DNA of 64,000 bases from Minisyncoccia bacterium (GTDB lineage Bacteria; Patescibacteriota; Minisyncoccia; Phycocordibacterales; UBA9973). Where the stretch lies: NCBI GenBank assembly GCA_049317285.1, contig JBMOIO010000004.1, forward strand, positions 2,994-66,993, in the 5' to 3' direction. The notes under the pieces were generated by a model. That model saw only the letters and a program-made list of their open reading frames with translations, had not been told where the DNA came from and ran no database searches. How positions within the stretch are numbered: position 1 is the first letter of the stretch; each line of letters begins with the position of its first letter. The position numbers and the translations under genes are program-made. Of this stretch, positions 1,449-8,268 are shown in pieces.

Positions 1449-2024
1449 ATGAAAACAGCGGTTATTATCCATGGAATGCCAAGTCGAGAAGAATATATAC
1501 AGACAGGGGCACACTCTTCTGAGCACCACTGGTTGCCTTGGATAAAAAAAGAGCTTGAGCTAAAAGAAGTTACTGTATACACCCCGGAAATGCCTGAGCC
1601 CTATGAGCCGAACTATGAAAGGTGGAAAATGGTTTTTGAACAATTTCCAATAAATGAAGAAACTGTATTGATTGGGCACAGTTGTGGGGCTGGGTTTTTA
1701 GTGCGGTGGCTTTCTGAAAACAATACTAGAGTAGGAAAAGTAATTCTCGTGGCTCCATGGATGGATCCGGATCATGAAGAAACAGCATTGGTGACCGACT
1801 TTTTTGAGTTCACTATCGACCCTTTTATGGTTGAAAAAACAAAAGGAGTAACTATTTTTATTTCAAGCGACGACGATGCGCCCATGCTAAAGACGGTTGA
1901 ACTATTGAAAGAGAATATTACAGGTATTGCGGTTGTAGAATTCTCTGACAAAGGGCATTTTGTAGAGGGGGATATGGGAACGAACGAATTCCCAGAACTA
2001 TTGAAAGAAGTCCTGAATCCATAA
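1449..2024 (+). CDS. alpha/beta hydrolase of the RBBP9/YdeN serine hydrolase family
   Basis: Internal start MKTAVIIHG; GHSCG nucleophile elbow; LVAPW motif; about 190 aa is typical of YdeN-like esterases. Confidence 0.6.
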   Translation: MKTAVIIHGMPSREEYIQTGAHSSEHHWLPWIKKELELKEVTVYTPEMPEPYEPNYERWKMVFEQFPINEETVLIGHSCGAGFLVRWLSENNTRVGKVILVAPWMDPDHEETALVTDFFEFTIDPFMVEKTKGVTIFISSDDDAPMLKTVELLKENITGIAVVEFSDKGHFVEGDMGTNEFPELLKEVLNP

Positions 2025-2044
2025 AACATAGTATACTGAGGTAT

Positions 2045-2536
2045 ATGAAAAAAAAGACCATTATACTTATCGTTTTAGGAGTGCTCCTTATTGTCGCTTT
2101 TGTTGTTATTGAGCGCTCAATCCGCAAGTCGACTATTGAGCAGATAGTGACAGAGGAAAAAGAGGCAGTTGCTGCAGCTGTTGTCGCATTTGGCGACAAG
2201 ATGAAAGATATTGCCCTTATTGCAGAGCAAGAGGTACTCAGTGCAAGTATTAAGAAAGAGTACGAGGATACTGTCGCGCCAGCACTCATCACTCAGTGGA
2301 TTCAGAATCCGACCCGTGCACCAGGACGTACAACAGTAAGCCCATGGCCGGAGCGTATTGAAGTTATTAGTATGGAAAAAGTGGAGAACTACTATAAAGT
2401 GGTGGCAGAGCTCGTTGAGATGACGAACGCAGAAGATGAAAAAGGAACAGAGTTTGGGCGAATCCCTCTGTATCTTACTGTTGCATGGGTAAACGAGGGA
2501 TGGAAGGTTGTCGAGTACCAGGTTTCGATGGAGTAA
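2045..2536 (+). CDS. hypothetical membrane-anchored protein
   Basis: N-terminal TM helix (IILIVLGVLLIVAFVVI), otherwise charged and soluble; no recognizable motif. Confidence 0.45.
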   Translation: MKKKTIILIVLGVLLIVAFVVIERSIRKSTIEQIVTEEKEAVAAAVVAFGDKMKDIALIAEQEVLSASIKKEYEDTVAPALITQWIQNPTRAPGRTTVSPWPERIEVISMEKVENYYKVVAELVEMTNAEDEKGTEFGRIPLYLTVAWVNEGWKVVEYQVSME

Positions 2537-2604
2537 TCTATGAAAAGAATATCAACAATCCTTGGTACTACCCTTAACGAATAGTACCGTTTGTCTTAAT
2601 TACT

Positions 2605-3600
2605 ATGAAAAAACTCTGGTTCAAGCGAAAAGTGTATGGATGGGGGTGGTACCCAGCAACCTGGCAGGGGTGGCTTGTTCTCGCGGTATATATTGCAAGC
2701 ATGTTTGCTTTTGCAGGCAGTGTGGACAATTCATCGCCCGACCGCGAAGTGTTCTTTATGCTCGTTCTTCCGTTTCTTATTTTAACTACAGCCTTGATCC
2801 GCATCTGCTACGCGAGAGGCGAGAGCCCTCGATGGCAATGGGGAGTGCAGAAAGAGTTTGAAATAATCGCGTTTGATCTCGACGGTACTTTGGCTGAGAG
2901 CAAGATGCCGATCGATGCCGAAATGGCGACTCTTATTGCAGAACTCTTAGCAGTAAAAAAAGTCGCAATTATTTCCGGTGCGGGCACTCCTCAATTGCAA
3001 AAACAAGTGCTCTCACGGCTTCCGGGCGATGCATTGCTTTCCAATTTGTATCTGCTTCCCACCAACGGCGCGGCACTGTTGTCGTACAATGGTGCATGGA
3101 ACACTGCATATGAAAATGGGCTGACCACAGAAGAGAAAGCAACAATATTTTCAGCATTTGAACAGGCATTTACTGAAACCGGCTATGTCCGTCCGACAGA
3201 TGCACACGGAGTAATCATCGAAGACCGTGGAGCGCAGATTACTTTCTCGGCACTTGGAAGCACAGCACCAACCCAACTGAAAGCGCTCTGGGACCCGGAG
3301 CATACAAAGCGTATTGCACTGCAAAGTGCACTGAAAAAATATATCCCAGAGTTTTCTGTTTCAATCGGAGGCATGACATCGATTGATATAACAAAAGGCT
3401 CTGTTGACAAAGCGTACGGCATCACCGCCTTGCTTAAGCATTTGAACTGCAATCAGGAAACACTACTGTTTGTCGGTGACGCGCTCTTTACAGGCGGAAA
3501 TGATGCGTCAGTACTCAGGGCAGGTGTTGCTGTTATGGCAGTTGCGAGTGTAGAAGAGACTAAGGCGCTCATGAGGAAATTTATAGAGGGTAAGCTATAA
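2605..3600 (+). CDS. HAD-IIB family hydrolase (Cof/PMM-like sugar phosphatase) with an N-terminal 2-TM membrane anchor
   Basis: HAD motif I FDLDGTL after about 85 aa that contain two hydrophobic helices; C-terminal GDALFTGGNDASV resembles HAD motif III (GDxxND). Confidence 0.7.
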   Translation: MKKLWFKRKVYGWGWYPATWQGWLVLAVYIASMFAFAGSVDNSSPDREVFFMLVLPFLILTTALIRICYARGESPRWQWGVQKEFEIIAFDLDGTLAESKMPIDAEMATLIAELLAVKKVAIISGAGTPQLQKQVLSRLPGDALLSNLYLLPTNGAALLSYNGAWNTAYENGLTTEEKATIFSAFEQAFTETGYVRPTDAHGVIIEDRGAQITFSALGSTAPTQLKALWDPEHTKRIALQSALKKYIPEFSVSIGGMTSIDITKGSVDKAYGITALLKHLNCNQETLLFVGDALFTGGNDASVLRAGVAVMAVASVEETKALMRKFIEGKL

Positions 3601-3607
3601 TAGAGTC

Positions 3608-3949
3608 ATGGAGCCACAAACGACACAACGACCCTGGGGAGAGTTTCGGCAGTTTACCCATAATGAGCCAGTCACAGTCAAGCTAATTTTGGTAAAAGCA
3701 GGCGAATGCCTTAGTCTTCAGCACCACACCCATCGAGAAGAATTTTGGAGAGTGCTTTCAGGAACTCCGCGCATCACTATCGGCGAGAGGGTGGTGGAAG
3801 CGAAAGCAGGGGATGAATTTACTATTTCAGCGACTGTCGCGCATCGCATAGAAGCAGTGGGGGCTGATACCGAACTTTTGGAGATTGCCAGAGGAGTATT
3901 TGATGAGGAGGATATTGTCAGACTTGAAGACAAGTACGGTCGCGTATGA
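3608..3949 (+). CDS. cupin-domain protein, mannose-6-phosphate isomerase type II C-terminal-like
   Basis: 113 aa; WGEF...F start and a two-His cupin core (SLQHHTHREE...ATVAHRIE) typical of PMI-type cupin_2 domains. Confidence 0.55.
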   Translation: MEPQTTQRPWGEFRQFTHNEPVTVKLILVKAGECLSLQHHTHREEFWRVLSGTPRITIGERVVEAKAGDEFTISATVAHRIEAVGADTELLEIARGVFDEEDIVRLEDKYGRV

Positions 3950-4977
3950 TTACTCTCACCCGCCATCCAGAAAACCCTCTTCTTTCTCCTGACCCTGCTC
4001 GCCCATGGGAAACTGAAGGTGTATTCAATCCGGGCGTTGTCCGAATTGGCGAAGAGGTCGTGATGCTCTATCGCGCGGTCGGCGAGCTTGAAGCCTACAT
4101 TTCACGGTTTGGTCTTGCAAAAAGCGCCGACGGTATTCATTTTACGAGCGCCTCAGATGAGCCCGTGTTTGGTCCGCACGAATCGTTTGACCAGTGGGCA
4201 ACCGAAGACCCTCGTATTACAAAAATAGATGACGACTACTATGTGACGTATGTTGCCGTTCCAGAGCGTATTATGCTAAACGGTTCATCTTTTCCGCGAA
4301 CAGTACCGCTTGAAACCGCAACAGGACTTTTAAAGACACGCGATTTTCGCACGTACGAAAATCTCGGCATTATTTCTGCCGAAGATTCAGACAATAAAGA
4401 CATTGTTCTTTTTCCTCGAAAAATAAATGGGCGCTATGCAATGCTGCACCGCCCCAACCGATGGAACAGGCCAAAGTGCGCACGCAGGCAGGCTGAAGGC
4501 AACCCAGTTAACTGGCCGTGTGATCTTTCTGCACTGCCGGAAAATCCCGCTATATGGATTGCGTGGTCTGATGACTTGGTGCATTGGGACAACCACAGCA
4601 TTTTTTTGCCGACGTCGCACGCCAATGATGCAAAAATCGGACCAGGGCTTCCTCCGATTGAAACACCGTACGGGTGGCTTATCATTTACCACCACGTAAC
4701 AACAACAGATCGGCCGGACGGCTTTTGCTACAGTGCGCGCGCAGCACTCTTTGCGCTTGATGAACCAGGGAGGCTCATCGGAAAGCTCAACTACGATATT
4801 CTCGCTCCGGATATGCCCTATGAAAAAGAGCGAAATTCGCACATCGTCTTCCCAACAGGGGGATATGTAAAGGATGATACTTTGTATGTGTACTATGGCG
4901 CATCCGACCGATATGTGTGTCTTGCCACAACAAACCTCTCGGCACTTATTACTGAGCTTAATCAAAAAAAACAATGA
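3946..4977 (+). CDS. glycoside hydrolase family 130 (beta-mannoside phosphorylase-like, DUF377)
   Basis: NPGVV, TEDPRIT and YYGASD motifs and a 343 aa length characteristic of GH130; start overlaps the cupin stop. Confidence 0.7.
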   Translation: MITLTRHPENPLLSPDPARPWETEGVFNPGVVRIGEEVVMLYRAVGELEAYISRFGLAKSADGIHFTSASDEPVFGPHESFDQWATEDPRITKIDDDYYVTYVAVPERIMLNGSSFPRTVPLETATGLLKTRDFRTYENLGIISAEDSDNKDIVLFPRKINGRYAMLHRPNRWNRPKCARRQAEGNPVNWPCDLSALPENPAIWIAWSDDLVHWDNHSIFLPTSHANDAKIGPGLPPIETPYGWLIIYHHVTTTDRPDGFCYSARAALFALDEPGRLIGKLNYDILAPDMPYEKERNSHIVFPTGGYVKDDTLYVYYGASDRYVCLATTNLSALITELNQKKQ

Positions 4978-7220
4978 TGTATGAAACTAGACAGAGTACA
5001 TCCGACAAAGACTGTATTGTTTACCTTTCAACATACCCTCCTCGGGCGTGCGGTATTGCAACATTTACGGCTGATTTGATTTCGTATACTGATGAACTTT
5101 TTTCTGAGGAAGTAGAAACGAGGGTCATCGCAATGAATACAGAGGCCACAGCCGATACTGAGTACGGCCCCAAGGTGCTCTTTTCAATACAGGAAAACCA
5201 GGAGCAGGAATATATAAAAGCGGCACACACACTCAACGCCATGGCGCACGTGTCTTTGATTTCAATACAGCATGAGTTCGGTATCTTTGGAGAACACTTT
5301 GGAAAAAATATAGTACTCTTTTTGCAAGCGCTTACTAAGCCCTCCGTGATTACTTTCCATACGGTTCTTCCGGAGCCTCCGGTTGAAATGAAAGAGGTAA
5401 TGCAAGCAATTCTCAATCGCGTAGAGTCGGCAGTGGTGATGACCGAAGTATCGCGCGAGCTTCTGCTATCACTTTATGATGTCTCTCCTCTAAAGGTACG
5501 TATCATTCCTCATGGTATTCACCCAGAACCCTATACCGACGGAGTATCTGCAAAAGAGCGCCTCGGGCTTTCAGGAAAGCGCGTGCTTTCAACCTTCGGA
5601 TTATTGAGTCGCGGAAAGGGAATCGAGTACGGCATTCGAGCACTTCCAGCAATTGTGGCCGAGTACCCAGACACGGTCTATTTGGTATTGGGTGCAACGC
5701 ATCCGGTTGTCGCACGGCATGAAGGAGAGGTGTATAGAAATGAGTTAATCGCGCTTGCACGCGAGCTTGGGGTAGAAAAATATGTCCAGTTTCATAATAG
5801 ATACTTGGAAACAAAAGAGCTGTTGCTTTTTTTGGAGGCCACTGACATTTATCTTTCGCTTTCGCAAAATCCAAATCAAGCAGTGTCGGGGACATTAAGT
5901 TATGCGCTCGGTTCTGGACGTACCGTATTTTCGACAGCCTTTATGCAGGCAAAGGAGGTGATCACGCCTGAGGTAGGGGTGTTGCTCCAGTTTGGTGAGT
6001 ATACAGGTATTGCGGAAAACTGCCTTCGCCTTTTTGGAAATGTTTCTGAGCTCAAATCGCTTGGTAAAGCAGCGTACTTCAGAACGCGTGCGATGACATG
6101 GTCAAATGTCGCCTTAGGGTATATGACAGTCTTTTCCGAACATGCGCCGTCATTGCTTGGGTTCAAGCACTGCATGGTGCCGATCAAGCTCGACTATATC
6201 AAAAAGCTTACCGATGATTTCGGTATGTGGCAGTTTGCACATCTCGGCAACCCTAATACACACTTTGGCTACACGCTCGACGACAACGCGCGTGCGCTTG
6301 TTGCGATGTGCTGGCTCAATAAACATATGCCCAATGAAGACACGAGTATTCTTGCAGAAATTTATCTCGGCTTCATCGAGCGGTCAGCGTCGGTACACAC
6401 TGAAAGCTTCGCCAATTATTTTACTGTTGAAAGACGAGCAGACAGTGGGTTGAACAATAATGAAAATCTCGAAGACGCCAATGCGCGAGCCTTGTGGGCG
6501 CTGTCGGAAGTGATGCGAAGCACGCTCCCCAAAGAGCTGATTGATCGAGCAAGGAAACTTTTTTCAGAACGCACAGCCGTGCATACACAAGTGGTTTCTC
6601 CGCGCGCTGCAGCCGCCTACATAAAAGCGTTTGCAACTGTTGCGAGCACCTCAGAAGATCACGGCGAACGAGTAGCGCATGTTCGCTTCTACGCAGATTT
6701 TTTGGTTGATCTCTATGAGCGAAGTTCAGACGGCGAGTGGCAGTGGTTTGAGGAGACATTGACCTATTCTAATGGTGTATTGCCGGAAGCTTTATTGGTA
6801 GCCTACACTTTCACAAATGATGAGCGATATCTTTCTGTTGGAAAATCAGCGCTTGATTTTTTGTTGGCACAGTCCTTTGAAGGAAGTGTGTGCGTACCGG
6901 TTGGGCAAGCGGGATGGTATAAAAAGGGTGGAAAAAAAGAACGCCACGATCAGCAGCCCGAAGAGGTTTCCGCACTTGTCTTGGCGCTTGCCAAAATGAT
7001 TTCAATTAAGAGCGATTCAATGTATCAGGAAAAAATTATCCTCGCCTTTAACTGGTTTCTTGGAAACAATCTTCTTCGCCAGTTCGTCTATACCCACGCA
7101 ACGGGCGGCTGCTATGACGGCATTGGAGAGTACGCGATCAATTTAAACCAGGGCGCTGAGTCCACTGTGGTATATTTGCTTGCACGAATTGCAATGGACG
7201 ATATTGGAGAGACCCGTTAG
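4974..7220 (+). CDS. GT4-family glycosyltransferase fused to a roughly 340 aa C-terminal domain of unknown function (possibly alpha/alpha-toroid glycosidase-like)
   Basis: The N-terminal roughly 400 aa have a GT4 architecture (STYPPRACGIATF..., the E-x7-E region near FLEATDIYLSLS). The C-terminal half (GYTLDDNARALVAM...NGVLPEALLVAY...GGCYDGIGEY) is not GT-like. Confidence 0.65.
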   Translation: MMYETRQSTSDKDCIVYLSTYPPRACGIATFTADLISYTDELFSEEVETRVIAMNTEATADTEYGPKVLFSIQENQEQEYIKAAHTLNAMAHVSLISIQHEFGIFGEHFGKNIVLFLQALTKPSVITFHTVLPEPPVEMKEVMQAILNRVESAVVMTEVSRELLLSLYDVSPLKVRIIPHGIHPEPYTDGVSAKERLGLSGKRVLSTFGLLSRGKGIEYGIRALPAIVAEYPDTVYLVLGATHPVVARHEGEVYRNELIALARELGVEKYVQFHNRYLETKELLLFLEATDIYLSLSQNPNQAVSGTLSYALGSGRTVFSTAFMQAKEVITPEVGVLLQFGEYTGIAENCLRLFGNVSELKSLGKAAYFRTRAMTWSNVALGYMTVFSEHAPSLLGFKHCMVPIKLDYIKKLTDDFGMWQFAHLGNPNTHFGYTLDDNARALVAMCWLNKHMPNEDTSILAEIYLGFIERSASVHTESFANYFTVERRADSGLNNNENLEDANARALWALSEVMRSTLPKELIDRARKLFSERTAVHTQVVSPRAAAAYIKAFATVASTSEDHGERVAHVRFYADFLVDLYERSSDGEWQWFEETLTYSNGVLPEALLVAYTFTNDERYLSVGKSALDFLLAQSFEGSVCVPVGQAGWYKKGGKKERHDQQPEEVSALVLALAKMISIKSDSMYQEKIILAFNWFLGNNLLRQFVYTHATGGCYDGIGEYAINLNQGAESTVVYLLARIAMDDIGETR

Positions 7221-7933
7221 GCTTCTTTTAAAAGCATTATGTCTTTTTCTGAAAGTTTCTTTATCGTCCCAACTTTCATTCCTGTTGAGAAAAGTTGTCC
7301 AATACGAATGCGGACCAAGGATTCGACAGTGAGGTGGCACGCTGCACACATACGACGGATTTGGTGCTTGCGCCCTTCGTGCAGAACAATACTAAACGAA
7401 TAGCGGGAGAGACGCTTTGTTGTCGCAGGTTTTGTTTTGATTTTATCGAGCATGATACCTTTCGACATTTTTTCAAGTGCCGCATCAGTGATGTTTTCGC
7501 GCACAGTCACGGCATATTCTTTGTCGATAGTCGCATTCTCTTTGGTGAGCGCGCGGGTGAGGGTGCCGTCGTTGGTCAATATGATCAACCCCTCGGACTC
7601 TTTATCGAGTCGCCCCACAGGGGAGAGATGAGAGAGCTTTGGGAATTTGTCTTTGATATCTTTTGCTTTGGGAAGCGTCTTAGTGGTTTCAAGCCCGCGG
7701 GGCTTGTACAAAAGGACTGATTCTTTTTTGGTAGGAGTTGTCATTCCTTTTACTTCGATAGTATCAGTTGGCTTTACGCCGTACCCCGTCTCTTTGACCA
7801 CTACTCCGTTTACAGAGACAGTGCCTGCGAGAATAAGCGCCTTTGCTTCACGGCGACTCGCAAGACCAAGGTGGGCTATGGCGCGCTCGAGGCGTTCGAG
7901 ACCTGGTACGAGAGTAGAGGAATCAGTTTTCAT
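7217..7933 (-). CDS. pseudouridine synthase, RsuA/RluB family (S4 domain plus PseudoU_synth_2)
   Basis: S4-like N-terminus (LASRREAKALILAGTVSVNG); catalytic GRLDKESEGL motif. Confidence 0.75.
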   Translation of the reverse strand: MKTDSSTLVPGLERLERAIAHLGLASRREAKALILAGTVSVNGVVVKETGYGVKPTDTIEVKGMTTPTKKESVLLYKPRGLETTKTLPKAKDIKDKFPKLSHLSPVGRLDKESEGLIILTNDGTLTRALTKENATIDKEYAVTVRENITDAALEKMSKGIMLDKIKTKPATTKRLSRYSFSIVLHEGRKHQIRRMCAACHLTVESLVRIRIGQLFSTGMKVGTIKKLSEKDIMLLKEA

Positions 7934-8019
7934 AAGGATTGTAGTATACAGGAAAATGTATGTTTTGCCACTAAAATCTTTTTTGTAAAGGTATGAGTAT
8001 TTTTGTTACACTGTAGAGC

Positions 8020-8268
8020 ATGGGATATGTGTACATACTTGAATGCGCCGACGGCACACTCTATATAGGAAGCACGACCGATCTTATCCGCCGTATTCAC
8101 GAGCACAATACTGCAAAAAACGGCGCCCACTACACAAAAATCCGCCGGCCGGTAGCCCTTCGCTATAGCGAGGAGTTACCCACGATTGGCGAAGCCCGCT
8201 CTCGCGAAGCAGCACTCAAGCGCCTCACTCGAGCGCAAAAGCAAGCACTGCTACCAGTTTTTTCTTAA
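8020..8268 (+). CDS. GIY-YIG nuclease family protein (small stand-alone, UPF0213-like)
   Basis: MGYVYILECADGTLYIGSTTDLIRRIHEH shows the GIY...YIG...R...E pattern; 82 aa. Confidence 0.75.
   Translation: MGYVYILECADGTLYIGSTTDLIRRIHEHNTAKNGAHYTKIRRPVALRYSEELPTIGEARSREAALKRLTRAQKQALLPVFS

What the first reader, a model, noticed from the sequence alone, without database searches (positions are those of the whole stretch)
2605..7220. Putative mannoside metabolism cluster: membrane-anchored HAD-IIB, PMI-like cupin, GH130 phosphorylase and a GT4 fusion
Four consecutive, partly overlapping genes combine several functions. The HAD-IIB is PMM/Cof-like. The cupin is of the mannose-6-phosphate isomerase type. 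GH130 enzymes phosphorolyse beta-mannosides to alpha-Man-1-P. The last gene is a GT4 glycosyltransferase. Together these could interconvert Man-6-P, Man-1-P and a beta-mannoside (for example a mannosyl compatible solute or a cell-surface glycan). In an organism with a minimal metabolism such a self-contained sugar module is notable. It may represent a salvage route or a storage cycle.
Basis: partly seen in the sequence, partly recalled or inferred. Interest (0 to 1): 0.55.

Follow-up and report, generated by a model that had tools for sequence, protein, structure and literature searches.

The report
Beta-1,2-mannoside phosphorylase operon of CPR bacteria
Four tightly packed genes in a tiny-genome (Paceibacterota-type) bacterium probably make and break down a beta-1,2-linked mannose sugar using mannose-1-phosphate. 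Two of them, the phosphorylase and an uncharacterised transferase fusion, form a pair found in hundreds of small-celled bacteria and archaea whose product nobody has identified.

Summary
Four same-strand genes (2605-7220), separated by a 7-bp gap and two 4-bp overlaps, encode:
- a 2-TM-anchored HAD-IIB mutase of the PMM/PgmH family;
- a stand-alone type-II PMI cupin;
- a GH130 enzyme with all residues of beta-1,2-mannoside phosphorylases;
- a GT4-like domain fused to an uncharacterised (alpha/alpha)6 barrel.

The conserved core is GH130 plus the GT4-(alpha/alpha)6 fusion. GH130 is adjacent or fused in 58 of 73 loci from Patescibacteria, Omnitrophota, Dehalococcoidia, DPANN and Asgard genomes. 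The two are sometimes one 1086-aa protein. The cupin and mutase are accessories, mostly in the window's own GH130 clade (cupin 9/12, mutase 5/12 loci).

Two features are unusual:
- a clade-specific 33-residue insertion in GH130 loop L2, the loop reported to govern GDP-mannose access;
- replacement of the GT4 EX7E motif by invariant QX7Y.

Most likely function: a cytoplasmic cycle Fru-6-P <-> Man-6-P <-> Man-1-P <-> beta-1,2-mannoside, serving as a reserve or solute. The fusion protein would make or trim the acceptor. The product is unknown and no biochemistry exists.

This is a new variant of a known kind. The closest parallels are the Thermoanaerobacter GH130 cluster and Leishmania mannogen.

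The parts
2605..3600 (+). Membrane-anchored HAD-IIB phosphohexomutase of the PMM/PgmH family. Catalytic domain from about aa 85, with DLDGT and GGND motifs.
   Evidence: 4bnd alpha-phosphoglucomutase 1e-37 over the full domain, followed by eukaryote-type PMMs; 35% identity to 4bnd.
2605..2856 (+). N-terminal 84-aa extension with two predicted transmembrane helices. The positive-inside rule (inference) places the mutase domain in the cytoplasm.
   Evidence: Kyte-Doolittle peaks at aa 22-40 and 47-70; 73/84 residues identical in L005. The extension is absent from the 277-284 aa orthologues in L007 and L008. It has no Pfam family.
3608..3949 (+). Stand-alone type-II phosphomannose-isomerase-like cupin (113 aa) with the SLQHHTHREEFW and AHRIE metal-site motifs.
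   Evidence: PF01050 5.6e-22 covering profile positions 11-116 of 116; matches the C-terminal PMI part of GMP_PMI. Same gene next to GH130; archaeal examples.
3946..4977 (+). GH130 beta-1,2-mannoside phosphorylase-like enzyme (343 aa).
   Evidence: Residues R43, E87, D88, K151, R169, K230 and H249 map onto Uhgb_MS R47, E136, the catalytic Asp, K184, R202 and R242 (PMC12814180). Conserved in 58-59 of 60 partner GH130s, except K230.
4453..4551 (+). Clade-specific 33-residue insertion in GH130 loop L2 (PNRWNRPKCARRQAEGNPVNWPCDLSALPENPA), directly after the phosphate-binding Arg169.
   Evidence: absent from all solved homologues; present, with the pattern HRPNxW..P.C..LPxxPxIW, in the sampled rows of a 120-homologue alignment (the pattern residues are conserved columns across all 120); 12 clade-A loci have 33-35 residues; 47 clade-B loci have 7-9. 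Translation checked.
4974..7220 (+). Two-domain protein: a GT4-like GT-B domain (aa ~12-392) fused to an (alpha/alpha)6 barrel (aa ~396-748).
   Evidence: AF2 full-length model has pLDDT 90 and pTM 0.87. Foldseek finds MshA, PimB', GlgM, SPS and BshA for the N-terminal half and 7tem for the C-terminal half.
5877..5903 (+). QAVSGTLSY: the position of the GT4 EX7E donor-binding motif, here Q302...Y310.
   Evidence: alignment to MshA gives E316->Q and E324->Y. Q in 83/84 and Y in 82/84 bacterial and archaeal homologues; MshA R231 becomes L/F/M; K236 = K215 is kept. Translation checked.
6159..7220 (+). (alpha/alpha)6 barrel domain of unknown activity. Invariant residues include D436/D437 (GYTxDDNAR), R440, R505, W589/W591, Y598-N600, D659-P662, D715 and N723-E729 (near-invariant: E663/E664).
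   Evidence: AF2 model pLDDT 92.5. Profile hit to YPO2471 (7tem) at 2.4e-18. Foldseek TMq 0.82 to 7tem and about 0.7 to AGE-family epimerases. No conserved His inside the barrel. Translation checked.

Best explanation
This is a cytoplasmic operon for turnover of a beta-1,2-linked mannoside through alpha-mannose-1-phosphate.

Proposed steps:
1. The cupin isomerises fructose-6-P to mannose-6-P.
2. The membrane-tethered PMM/PgmH-type mutase converts mannose-6-P to alpha-mannose-1-P.
3. The GH130 enzyme reversibly transfers that mannose in beta-1,2 linkage onto an acceptor (reverse phosphorolysis). When phosphate is high or carbon is needed, it releases mannose-1-P again.
4. The obligate partner protein supplies and processes the acceptor. 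Its retaining GT4-like domain makes an alpha-glycoside primer or head group. Its (alpha/alpha)6 domain, which has invariant carboxylates, hydrolyses or transglycosylates that glycan.

The net role would be an internal mannoside reserve or solute that is filled and drained without spending NTP per residue, analogous to the Leishmania mannogen cycle.

Shown here: family memberships, conservation of active-site residues, gene coupling, fusions and phyletic spread.

Inferred: the direction of flux, the acceptor, the GT4 donor, the activity of the barrel, and the physiological role.
For: - GH130: closest to 1,2-beta-oligomannan phosphorylase Teth514_1788 (9fj8, 1.2e-43) and beta-1,2-mannobiose phosphorylases. 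It keeps the catalytic Asp, the beta-1,2-specifying Glu and the phosphate-binding Arg/Lys/His (residue roles from PMC12814180).
- HAD: all 17 solved relatives with E below 1e-4 are phosphohexomutases.
- Cupin: passes the PMI type-II Pfam cutoff threefold.
- Translational coupling: 4-bp overlaps.
- Natural fusions tie the parts together: GH130-GT4-barrel in one 1086-aa chain, PMM-like HAD-GH130 in L015, and HldC-like nucleotidyltransferase-HAD in L039.
- The cluster keeps its order in five further genomic contexts with unrelated flanks. In L007 it sits beside transketolase, a PfkB kinase and FBP aldolase.
- None of the four proteins has a signal-peptide-like N-terminus (read directly from the translations). 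No transporter or secreted glycosidase is adjacent to the cluster in the window or in the Paceibacterota loci examined.
- Precedents: GH130_6 genes cluster with a Man-1-P nucleotidyltransferase and a GT4 in Thermoanaerobacter (PMC4264767). A beta-1,2-mannan reserve cycles through Man-1-P in Leishmania (PMC10913872).
Against: - No biochemical data exist for any member.
- The GH130 scores 195 bits against an equivalog cutoff of 450. It also carries a 33-residue L2 insertion of unknown effect.
- The HAD is closer to a glucose-phosphate mutase (4bnd) than to PMMs. It accompanies the module in only 5 of 12 clade-A and 3 of 47 clade-B loci.
- Stand-alone type-II PMI cupins are poorly characterised.
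- The GT4-like domain lacks EX7E, so it may use an unusual donor or be inactive.
- The barrel has no characterised homologue.
- Whether CPR cells contain any beta-1,2-mannoside is unknown.
- The authors of PMC12814180 caution that a biosynthetic role for bacterial GH130 is unproven.
Confidence: 0.5

Rival explanations
1. Catabolic salvage. The cell imports beta-1,2-mannooligosaccharides from a host or neighbour (for example yeast-type or bacterial glycans). GH130 phosphorolyses them to Man-1-P, which the mutase and cupin feed into glycolysis. The GT4-barrel protein only recycles mannose into the cell's own glycans, as proposed for Thermoanaerobacter.
For: This is the physiological role proposed for the closest characterised enzymes (PMC4264767). 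Phosphorolysis saves ATP, which would suit a fermentative symbiont. An MFS transporter and a family-5 solute-binding protein lie 6-10 kb downstream in the window.
Against: No transporter, solute-binding protein or endo-glycosidase is linked to the module in the window or in the Paceibacterota loci examined. Across the 80 wider loci the only transport-related neighbour that recurs is an ABC ATPase, in 8 loci. The window's MFS and SBP genes are on the opposite strand and were not seen travelling with the cluster in the other loci. The strict pairing, and the occasional fusion, of the phosphorylase with a transferase-like protein is unusual for a purely degradative system.
Confidence: 0.2
2. Synthesis and controlled breakdown of a small mannosyl compatible solute. 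The GT4 domain glycosylates a small acceptor, as its nearest structural neighbours MshA, BshA, SPS, GlgM and TreT do. The fused barrel hydrolyses it, as the (alpha/alpha)6 trehalases, invertases and mannosylglycerate hydrolases do. GH130 adds or removes one beta-mannose.
For: Foldseek neighbours of the GT4 domain are mostly small-acceptor GT4 enzymes. In other lineages the module is accompanied by GH100/GDE_C/MGH1-like hydrolases (11 loci) and ROK kinases. Four invariant arginines in the barrel would suit an anionic or phosphorylated ligand.
Against: No solute with a beta-1,2-mannoside plus an alpha-glycoside is known from these phyla. No phosphatase partner is present, since the HAD is mutase-like. 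Acceptor specificity cannot be read from GT4 sequence.
Confidence: 0.17
3. Cell-envelope glycan or glycoconjugate assembly: the genes build a surface mannan or glycolipid.
For: Sources label the fusion protein 'glycosyltransferase involved in cell wall biosynthesis'. The mutase is membrane-anchored in the window. A GT2 gene lies elsewhere in the window.
Against: No flippase, polyprenyl-phosphate transferase, GT-C enzyme or secretion signal accompanies the module. The GT4-barrel protein and the GH130 have no predicted TM segment. The anchor on the HAD is confined to the window's close relatives. Source names are generic automatic labels.
Confidence: 0.08

Closest known systems
Thermoanaerobacter sp. 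X-514 GH130_6 cluster (Teth514_1785-1796; Chiku et al. 2014, PMC4264767)
   Same: It contains beta-1,2-mannoside phosphorylases that are the best sequence matches (9fj8 at 1.2e-43, 7fip at 1.9e-39). They are clustered with a GT4 glycosyltransferase and a Man-1-P-processing enzyme, are cytoplasmic, and share the alpha-Man-1-P hub.
   Different: The Thermoanaerobacter cluster has an ABC importer, a GH5 enzyme and a canonical Man-1-P guanylyltransferase. The window has none of these. Instead it has a PMM/PgmH-type mutase, a stand-alone PMI cupin, a GT4 lacking EX7E fused to an (alpha/alpha)6 barrel, and a GH130 with a 33-residue L2 insertion.
Leishmania mannogen cycle (GT108 MTPs; Sernee et al. 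2019 as cited in PMC10913872 and PMC12814180)
   Same: It forms an intracellular beta-1,2-mannan reserve and mobilises it by reversible phosphorolysis to Man-1-P, using five-bladed propeller enzymes mechanistically equivalent to GH130. It links to hexose-phosphate pools.
   Different: It belongs to a different CAZy family (GT108, not GH130) and is eukaryotic. Priming is by GDP-Man-dependent MTP1/2, not by a GT4-barrel fusion. No product has been shown in CPR bacteria.
Lactococcus lactis alpha-phosphoglucomutase PgmH/APGM (PDB 4bnd) and eukaryote-type PMMs
   Same: Same HAD-IIB fold family, aligned end to end at 35% identity with the DxDxT and GGND motifs.
   Different: The window protein has an 84-aa two-helix membrane anchor. 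Its sugar preference is unknown. From memory, PgmH is reported to be glucose-specific; this was not checked here.
Yersinia pestis YPO2471 (PDB 7tem), a structural-genomics (alpha/alpha)6 protein
   Same: It is the only solved relative of the C-terminal domain detectable by sequence (2.4e-18; TMq 0.82). It shares the DD, R, YxN, DG and N.N.GAEST motifs.
   Different: It is a stand-alone, exported protein without a GT4 domain. It lacks the DQQPEEV motif. Its function is unknown, and no paper was found.
Cyclic beta-1,2-glucan synthase Cgs (a transferase, an (alpha/alpha)6 domain and a GH94 phosphorylase in one protein). This comparison is from memory only.
   Same: It combines a glycosyltransferase, an (alpha/alpha)6 glycan-processing domain and a beta-1,2-glycan phosphorylase, sometimes in a single polypeptide.
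   Different: It works on a different sugar (glucose), and all three domains belong to different families. Cgs is an inner-membrane protein. GT4 enzymes are retaining, so the GT4 domain could not itself make the beta-linkage from an alpha-linked donor. The analogy was not tested here.

Membership tests
GH130 (Pfam PF04041) | Profile match above the gathering score over the whole five-bladed propeller | tested here: met
   153.3 bits against a cutoff of 26, covering profile positions 3-315 of 320.
GH130 phosphorylases (as opposed to GH130 hydrolases) | Catalytic Asp plus basic phosphate-binding residues (Arg, Lys/Arg, His) instead of carboxylates | tested here: met
   D88, K151, R169, K230 and H249 align with the Uhgb_MS and Teth514 residues (roles). 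All but K230 are conserved in 58-59 of 60 partner GH130s; K230 is Asn in clade B.
beta-1,2-specific GH130 (subfamilies 4 and 6) | +1 subsite pair Arg47/Glu136 (Uhgb_MS numbering) | tested here: met
   R43 and E87 are present and conserved in 59 of 60 sequences.
beta-1,2-mannobiose phosphorylase equivalogs (NCBIfam NF052550 and NF050092) | Score above the curated equivalog cutoff | tested here: not met
   194.7 bits against 450, and 192.2 against 550. The protein is related but is not an equivalog.
GH130_6 (Teth514-type) | Short loop L2 after the phosphate-binding Arg | tested here: not met
   There are 33 extra residues (aa 170-202) relative to 9fj8 and 7fip. CAZy subfamily assignment itself is not testable with these tools.
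GH130 phosphorylase | Measured phosphorolysis or reverse phosphorolysis with alpha-Man-1-P | not testable with these tools
   Requires an enzyme assay.
HAD-IIB / PMM-PgmH phosphohexomutases | HAD-IIB profile above cutoff, DxDxT nucleophile motif, GGND motif, and end-to-end similarity to known mutases | tested here: met
   TIGR01484 79.2 bits (cutoff 41.8) and PF03332 31.4 bits (cutoff 22.4). 4bnd matches at 1e-37 over aa 86-327. The FDLDGTL and GGND motifs are visible in the alignment.
Cof-type HAD-IIB phosphatases | TIGR00099 above cutoff | tested here: not met
   59.5 bits against a cutoff of 137.
Phosphomannomutase (substrate = mannose phosphates) | Preference for Man-1-P/Man-6-P over glucose phosphates | not testable with these tools
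   Support is contextual only: adjacency to the PMI cupin and GH130, and a HAD-GH130 fusion in L015.
Type-II phosphomannose isomerase cupin (PF01050) | Profile above cutoff over the whole domain, and cupin metal-ligand motifs | tested here: met
   78.5 bits against a cutoff of 23.6, covering profile positions 11-116 of 116. SLQHHTHREEFW and AHRIE are read from the translation. Their identity with the PMI type-II metal-ligand consensus is from memory, not tested.
Bifunctional GMP/PMI (TIGR01479) | N-terminal nucleotidyltransferase domain plus the C-terminal cupin | tested here: not met
   77.9 bits against a cutoff of 373. Only profile positions 358-467 match, so the protein is a stand-alone cupin.
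GT4 retaining glycosyltransferases | GT-B fold and a family profile match | tested here: met
   PF13692 32.2 bits (cutoff 27). A profile built from homologues hits MshA at 6e-14. Foldseek TMt is 0.75-0.82 to MshA, PimB', PimA and BshA.
GT4 retaining glycosyltransferases | EX7E motif and the Arg/Lys pair that bind the NDP-sugar | tested here: not met
   E316->Q302, E324->Y310 and R231->L210; only K236 = K215 is kept. This pattern is invariant across 86 homologues.
AGE superfamily epimerases/isomerases (cellobiose 2-epimerase, YihS, mannose isomerase) | (alpha/alpha)6 fold plus conserved catalytic histidines (the His requirement is from general knowledge of the family) | tested here: not met
   The fold is similar (TMq about 0.7, 11-13% identity), but no His is conserved inside the barrel among 86 homologues.
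YPO2471-like (alpha/alpha)6 proteins | Significant sequence and structure similarity | tested here: met
   2.4e-18; Foldseek 2e-14 with TMq 0.76-0.82. The family has no known function.

The most novel reading that the evidence does not exclude
Ultra-small prokaryotes (CPR, DPANN, Omnitrophota and others) build an intracellular beta-1,2-mannan or cyclic/capped oligomannan reserve with a three-activity machine: phosphorylase, GT-B domain and (alpha/alpha)6 domain. This would be a mannose counterpart of cyclic beta-1,2-glucan synthase and a bacterial/archaeal 'mannogen'. In this reading the QX7Y GT-B domain does not use a classical GDP/UDP-sugar. It would use either sugar-1-phosphate directly or an unusual ADP-linked mannose made by the HldC-like enzyme seen in some loci. 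The polymer could then be made with little or no nucleotide expenditure, in organisms that must scavenge nucleotides.
Probability: 0.12. Interest if true: 0.85.

Novelty: new variant of a known kind. Interest (0 to 1): 0.58.

Why it matters
CPR and DPANN organisms are thought to have very limited carbon-storage and biosynthetic capacity. Here a conserved, horizontally shared two-gene module (found in at least 569 species-level genomes) is linked to Man-1-P chemistry. That would indicate an overlooked glycan: a reserve, a solute or a signalling molecule.

The module also defines two uncharacterised enzyme groups that can be tested directly:
- a GH130 clade with a long insertion in the loop that controls nucleotide-sugar access;
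- a GT4-like family that has replaced its donor-binding EX7E motif and is always fused to, or encoded beside, a YPO2471-like barrel.

Both are of interest for CAZyme classification and for enzymatic synthesis of beta-mannosides.

Tried and rejected
- Promoter and terminator scans of 1900-8100 gave no more sites than shuffled sequence, so they say nothing about operon boundaries.
- No paper was found on YPO2471. No paper describes GH130 clusters in CPR beyond a passing count in one Microgenomates genome. A search for GH130/GT4 genomic context found nothing relevant.
- The supplement of the Thermoanaerobacter paper did not reveal what Teth514_1785 is. Whether it is the barrel homologue remains open.
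- I considered the C-terminal domain as a cellobiose-2-epimerase-like enzyme, which would have recreated the Bacteroides mannan pathway (epimerase plus GH130 plus PMM plus PMI). I rejected this because no catalytic His is conserved.
- I considered the HAD as a sugar-phosphate phosphatase partner of the GT4 domain (SPS/SPP logic). I rejected this because every significant solved relative is a mutase and the Cof and SPP models fall below cutoff.
- My first HMM alignment of distant GH130 partners was misaligned and suggested loss of phosphate-binding residues. Realignment with MAFFT L-INS-i showed they are conserved.
- No second copy of any cluster gene and no HldC-like gene occurs elsewhere in the window.

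Full report
**1. Observation**

A 7-bp spacer is followed by two 4-bp overlaps, which is typical of translational coupling. The next gene, a pseudouridine synthase at 7217-7933, is convergent. The rest of the window holds housekeeping genes (RNase J, RNase R, GroEL, DnaG, sigma-70, MreB, UvrABC, Ddl). It has no other sugar-nucleotide gene and no second copy of any cluster gene. The closest homologues of the cluster proteins come from Candidatus Paceibacterota/Patescibacteria assemblies.

**2. Family assignments**

All four assignments hold against curated cutoffs.

*The HAD.* It is HAD-IIB (TIGR01484, 79 bits against a cutoff of 42) and matches the eukaryote-type PMM Pfam model. The Cof model is below cutoff. 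Against solved structures the domain aligns end to end with Lactococcus lactis alpha-phosphoglucomutase 4bnd (1e-37, 35% identity) and then with 15 PMM entries. All 17 matches with E below 1e-4 are mutases; two weak matches (E 0.003 and 0.006) are not. It is therefore a PMM/PgmH-type phosphohexomutase. Whether it prefers mannose or glucose phosphates cannot be read from sequence.

Its first 84 residues form two hydrophobic helices. This segment is better conserved than the catalytic domain between the window and its 82%-identity relative L005 (73/84 against 194/247 identical). More distant orthologues of 277-284 aa lack it. By the positive-inside rule the catalytic domain faces the cytoplasm; this is inference.

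*The cupin.* It covers the entire PF01050 model (78.5 bits against a cutoff of 23.6). This is the PMI half of bifunctional GMP/PMI enzymes, without their nucleotidyltransferase half.

*The GH130.* It is closest to 1,2-beta-oligomannan phosphorylase Teth514_1788 (9fj8, 1.2e-43), then to beta-1,2-mannobiose phosphorylases 7fip and Lin0857, and to the dual phosphorylase/transferase Uhgb_MS. I mapped it onto the residues analysed by Ladeveze et al. (PMC12814180):
- R43 and E87 are the +1-subsite pair that specifies beta-1,2 linkage.
- D88 is the catalytic Asp.
- K151, R169, K230 and H249 line the phosphate site.

These residues are at least 95% conserved in 120 close homologues. All but K230 are also conserved in 58-59 of 60 GH130s that partner the fusion gene across phyla; K230 is Asn in clade B. 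The protein scores well below the NCBIfam equivalog cutoffs (195 against 450 bits), so it is a relative of the characterised enzymes, not an orthologue.

**3.

(a) *An insertion in GH130 loop L2.* The window GH130 carries a 33-residue insertion (aa 170-202, nt 4453-4551) immediately after phosphate-binding Arg169. This is loop L2, the element the 2025 study identifies as deciding whether GDP-mannose can enter the active site. In the sampled rows of a 120-homologue alignment the insertion is present, and its pattern residues (HRPNxW...P.C...LPxxPxIW) are conserved columns across all 120 sequences. It is absent from every solved GH130.

(b) *A two-domain last gene.* Residues ~12-392 form a GT-B/GT4 fold. 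The nearest structures are MshA, PimB', GlgM, sucrose-phosphate synthase, BshA and TreT, with TMt 0.7-0.8. However, the EX7E signature is replaced by Q302-X7-Y310, and MshA Arg231 is replaced by Leu; only the Lys (K215) remains. This pattern is essentially invariant in 86 bacterial and archaeal homologues, so it defines a family rather than marking decay.

Residues ~396-748 fold with high confidence (pLDDT 92.5) into an (alpha/alpha)6 barrel. The only sequence-detectable solved relative is the uncharacterised Yersinia protein YPO2471 (7tem, 2.4e-18, TMq 0.82). AGE-family epimerases, GH9, GH76 and GH88 follow at 11-13% identity. No histidine is conserved inside the barrel, which argues against AGE-type epimerase chemistry. 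The invariant residues are carboxylates and arginines: D436/D437, D659, D715 and E729 (E663/E664 near-invariant), and R440, R505, R544 and R738. The full-length model has pTM 0.87, suggesting a fixed arrangement of the two domains.

**4. Co-conservation**

Around homologues of the fusion protein at 48-82% identity, the order cupin-GH130-fusion recurs in all five further distinct genomic contexts examined (six contig records), each with unrelated flanks; a sixth context, L005, shares the window's flanks. The gene immediately upstream of the cupin varies:
- a PMM-like HAD in L005, L007 and L008;
- an HldC/RfaE-domain-II-like nucleotidyltransferase in L001/L002;
- a second cupin in L006;
- no related gene in L003/L004.

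A scan of one genome per GTDB species with the barrel profile found at least 569 positive genomes. They include many Patescibacteria classes, Omnitrophota, Dehalococcoidia, Elusimicrobiota, Planctomycetia, Woese-, Pace- and Altiarchaeota, and Asgard archaea. Some record labels, such as Gammaproteobacteria and Methanosarcinales, look like mis-binning.

In the 80 best loci the barrel is always fused to the GT4-like domain. GH130 is directly upstream or fused in 58 of the 73 loci that have upstream sequence, and lies within the locus in 63. Stand-alone barrels also exist in metagenomes. The barrel family has 4,882 50%-identity clusters at E<=1e-3.

Two GH130 clades serve as partners:
- Clade A, the window's clade, has the L2 insertion.
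- Clade B has a short L2 and a different insertion upstream of the WEKD motif.

The cupin lies within 3 kb in 9 of 12 clade-A loci and the HAD in 5 of 12. In clade B the figures are 2 and 3 of 47. The conserved core is therefore GH130 plus GT4-barrel, and the four-gene operon is a Paceibacterota elaboration.

Natural fusions reinforce the functional links:
- GH130-GT4-barrel in a single 1086-aa protein;
- PMM-like HAD fused to GH130 in L015;
- HldC-like nucleotidyltransferase fused to HAD in L039.

**5. Mechanism**

The best-supported reading is a cytoplasmic cycle: Fru-6-P <-> Man-6-P (cupin) <-> alpha-Man-1-P (mutase) <-> beta-1,2-mannoside (GH130, reversible). The fusion protein would provide and process the acceptor.

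None of the four proteins has a signal-peptide-like N-terminus (read directly from the translations), and no transporter or secreted glycosidase is adjacent to the cluster in the window or the Paceibacterota loci examined. Together with the pairing to a transferase-like protein, this favours internal synthesis and mobilisation over import-driven catabolism.

There are two precedents:
- The Thermoanaerobacter GH130_6 cluster has a Man-1-P guanylyltransferase and a GT4 (PMC4264767).
- The Leishmania beta-1,2-mannan reserve cycles through Man-1-P (PMC10913872).

I put about 0.5 on this general model. The rivals are exogenous-mannoside salvage (0.2), a small mannosyl solute with a fused synthase/hydrolase (0.17) and envelope glycan synthesis (0.08). 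The acceptor, the GT4 donor, the barrel's reaction and the effect of the L2 insertion are all unknown.

**6. Comparison and novelty**

The individual folds and the idea of a GH130-centred Man-1-P pathway are known. The following were not found in the searchable literature:
- the specific GH130 clade;
- the QX7Y GT4-like family;
- its obligatory (alpha/alpha)6 partner domain;
- the spread of the pair through small-genome bacteria and archaea.

I classify the finding as a new variant of a known kind.

The most novel reading still open is a mannose analogue of cyclic beta-1,2-glucan synthase or 'prokaryotic mannogen', possibly independent of classical nucleotide sugars. That analogy is from memory. 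I give it about 0.12 probability.

**7. Verdict**

Nothing about its product is demonstrated. Interest: 0.58.

Noticed in passing
L003 8001-11261; L010 1563-4838; L011 5754-9029 (proteins P0044, P0046, P0060): In some Patescibacteria-type contigs GH130, the GT4-like domain and the (alpha/alpha)6 barrel are fused into one protein of about 1086 aa, with the cupin gene immediately upstream.
   Followed up: partly
L015 5159-6853; L039 9046-10287; L001 6138-6626: Two further fusions occur. A PMM-like HAD is fused to GH130 (564 aa). An RfaE-domain-II/HldC-like adenylyltransferase is fused to a PMM-like HAD (413 aa). In Nomurabacteria a stand-alone HldC-like gene sits upstream of the cupin where the window has the HAD. 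This hints that some lineages make an unusual, possibly ADP-linked, mannose donor.
   Followed up: partly
L055 3280-6552; L082 3077-6778; L059 1606-5265: Jorgensenbacteria carry tandem GH130 genes, including a 651-aa double-GH130 protein. Dehalococcoidia loci have proteins of about 1220 aa with a C-terminal GH130 and about 900 N-terminal residues that match no Pfam family.
   Followed up: no
L028 11056-12261, L026 2064-2726, L085 13885-15027, L071 12021-12839, L090 1730-3976: Outside Paceibacterota the module is often accompanied by a GH100/GDE_C/MGH1-like (alpha/alpha)6 hydrolase (11 loci), a PIG-L-type deacetylase (9), a canonical GT4 (9) and a ROK kinase (5).
   Followed up: partly
L010, L011, L022, L043, L056 (labelled Gammaproteobacteria); L061, L077 (labelled Methanosarcinales): The record taxonomy of several MAG contigs carrying CPR/DPANN-like versions of the module looks inconsistent with their gene content. 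For example, L010 has the same gene arrangement as the CPR locus L003 and is 54% identical to the window's barrel domain. These are probably binning or labelling errors.
   Followed up: no
window 2045-2536 (+): A 163-aa ORF with an N-terminal hydrophobic segment and no Pfam match lies 68 bp upstream of the cluster. A 162-aa ORF with no Pfam hit lies upstream of the cluster in L005, though not adjacent to it; homology was not checked.
   Followed up: no
window 8020-8268 (+) and L001, L005, L006: A small GIY-YIG protein (about 80 aa) recurs within a few kb of the module in six loci with otherwise different flanks. This may be coincidence, since such genes are common in these genomes.
   Followed up: no
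window 1-64000: GC skew is positive in most 2-kb windows and cumulative GC skew rises almost continuously across the window. Most genes are on the + strand. This is consistent with a single replichore and leading-strand bias.
   Followed up: no
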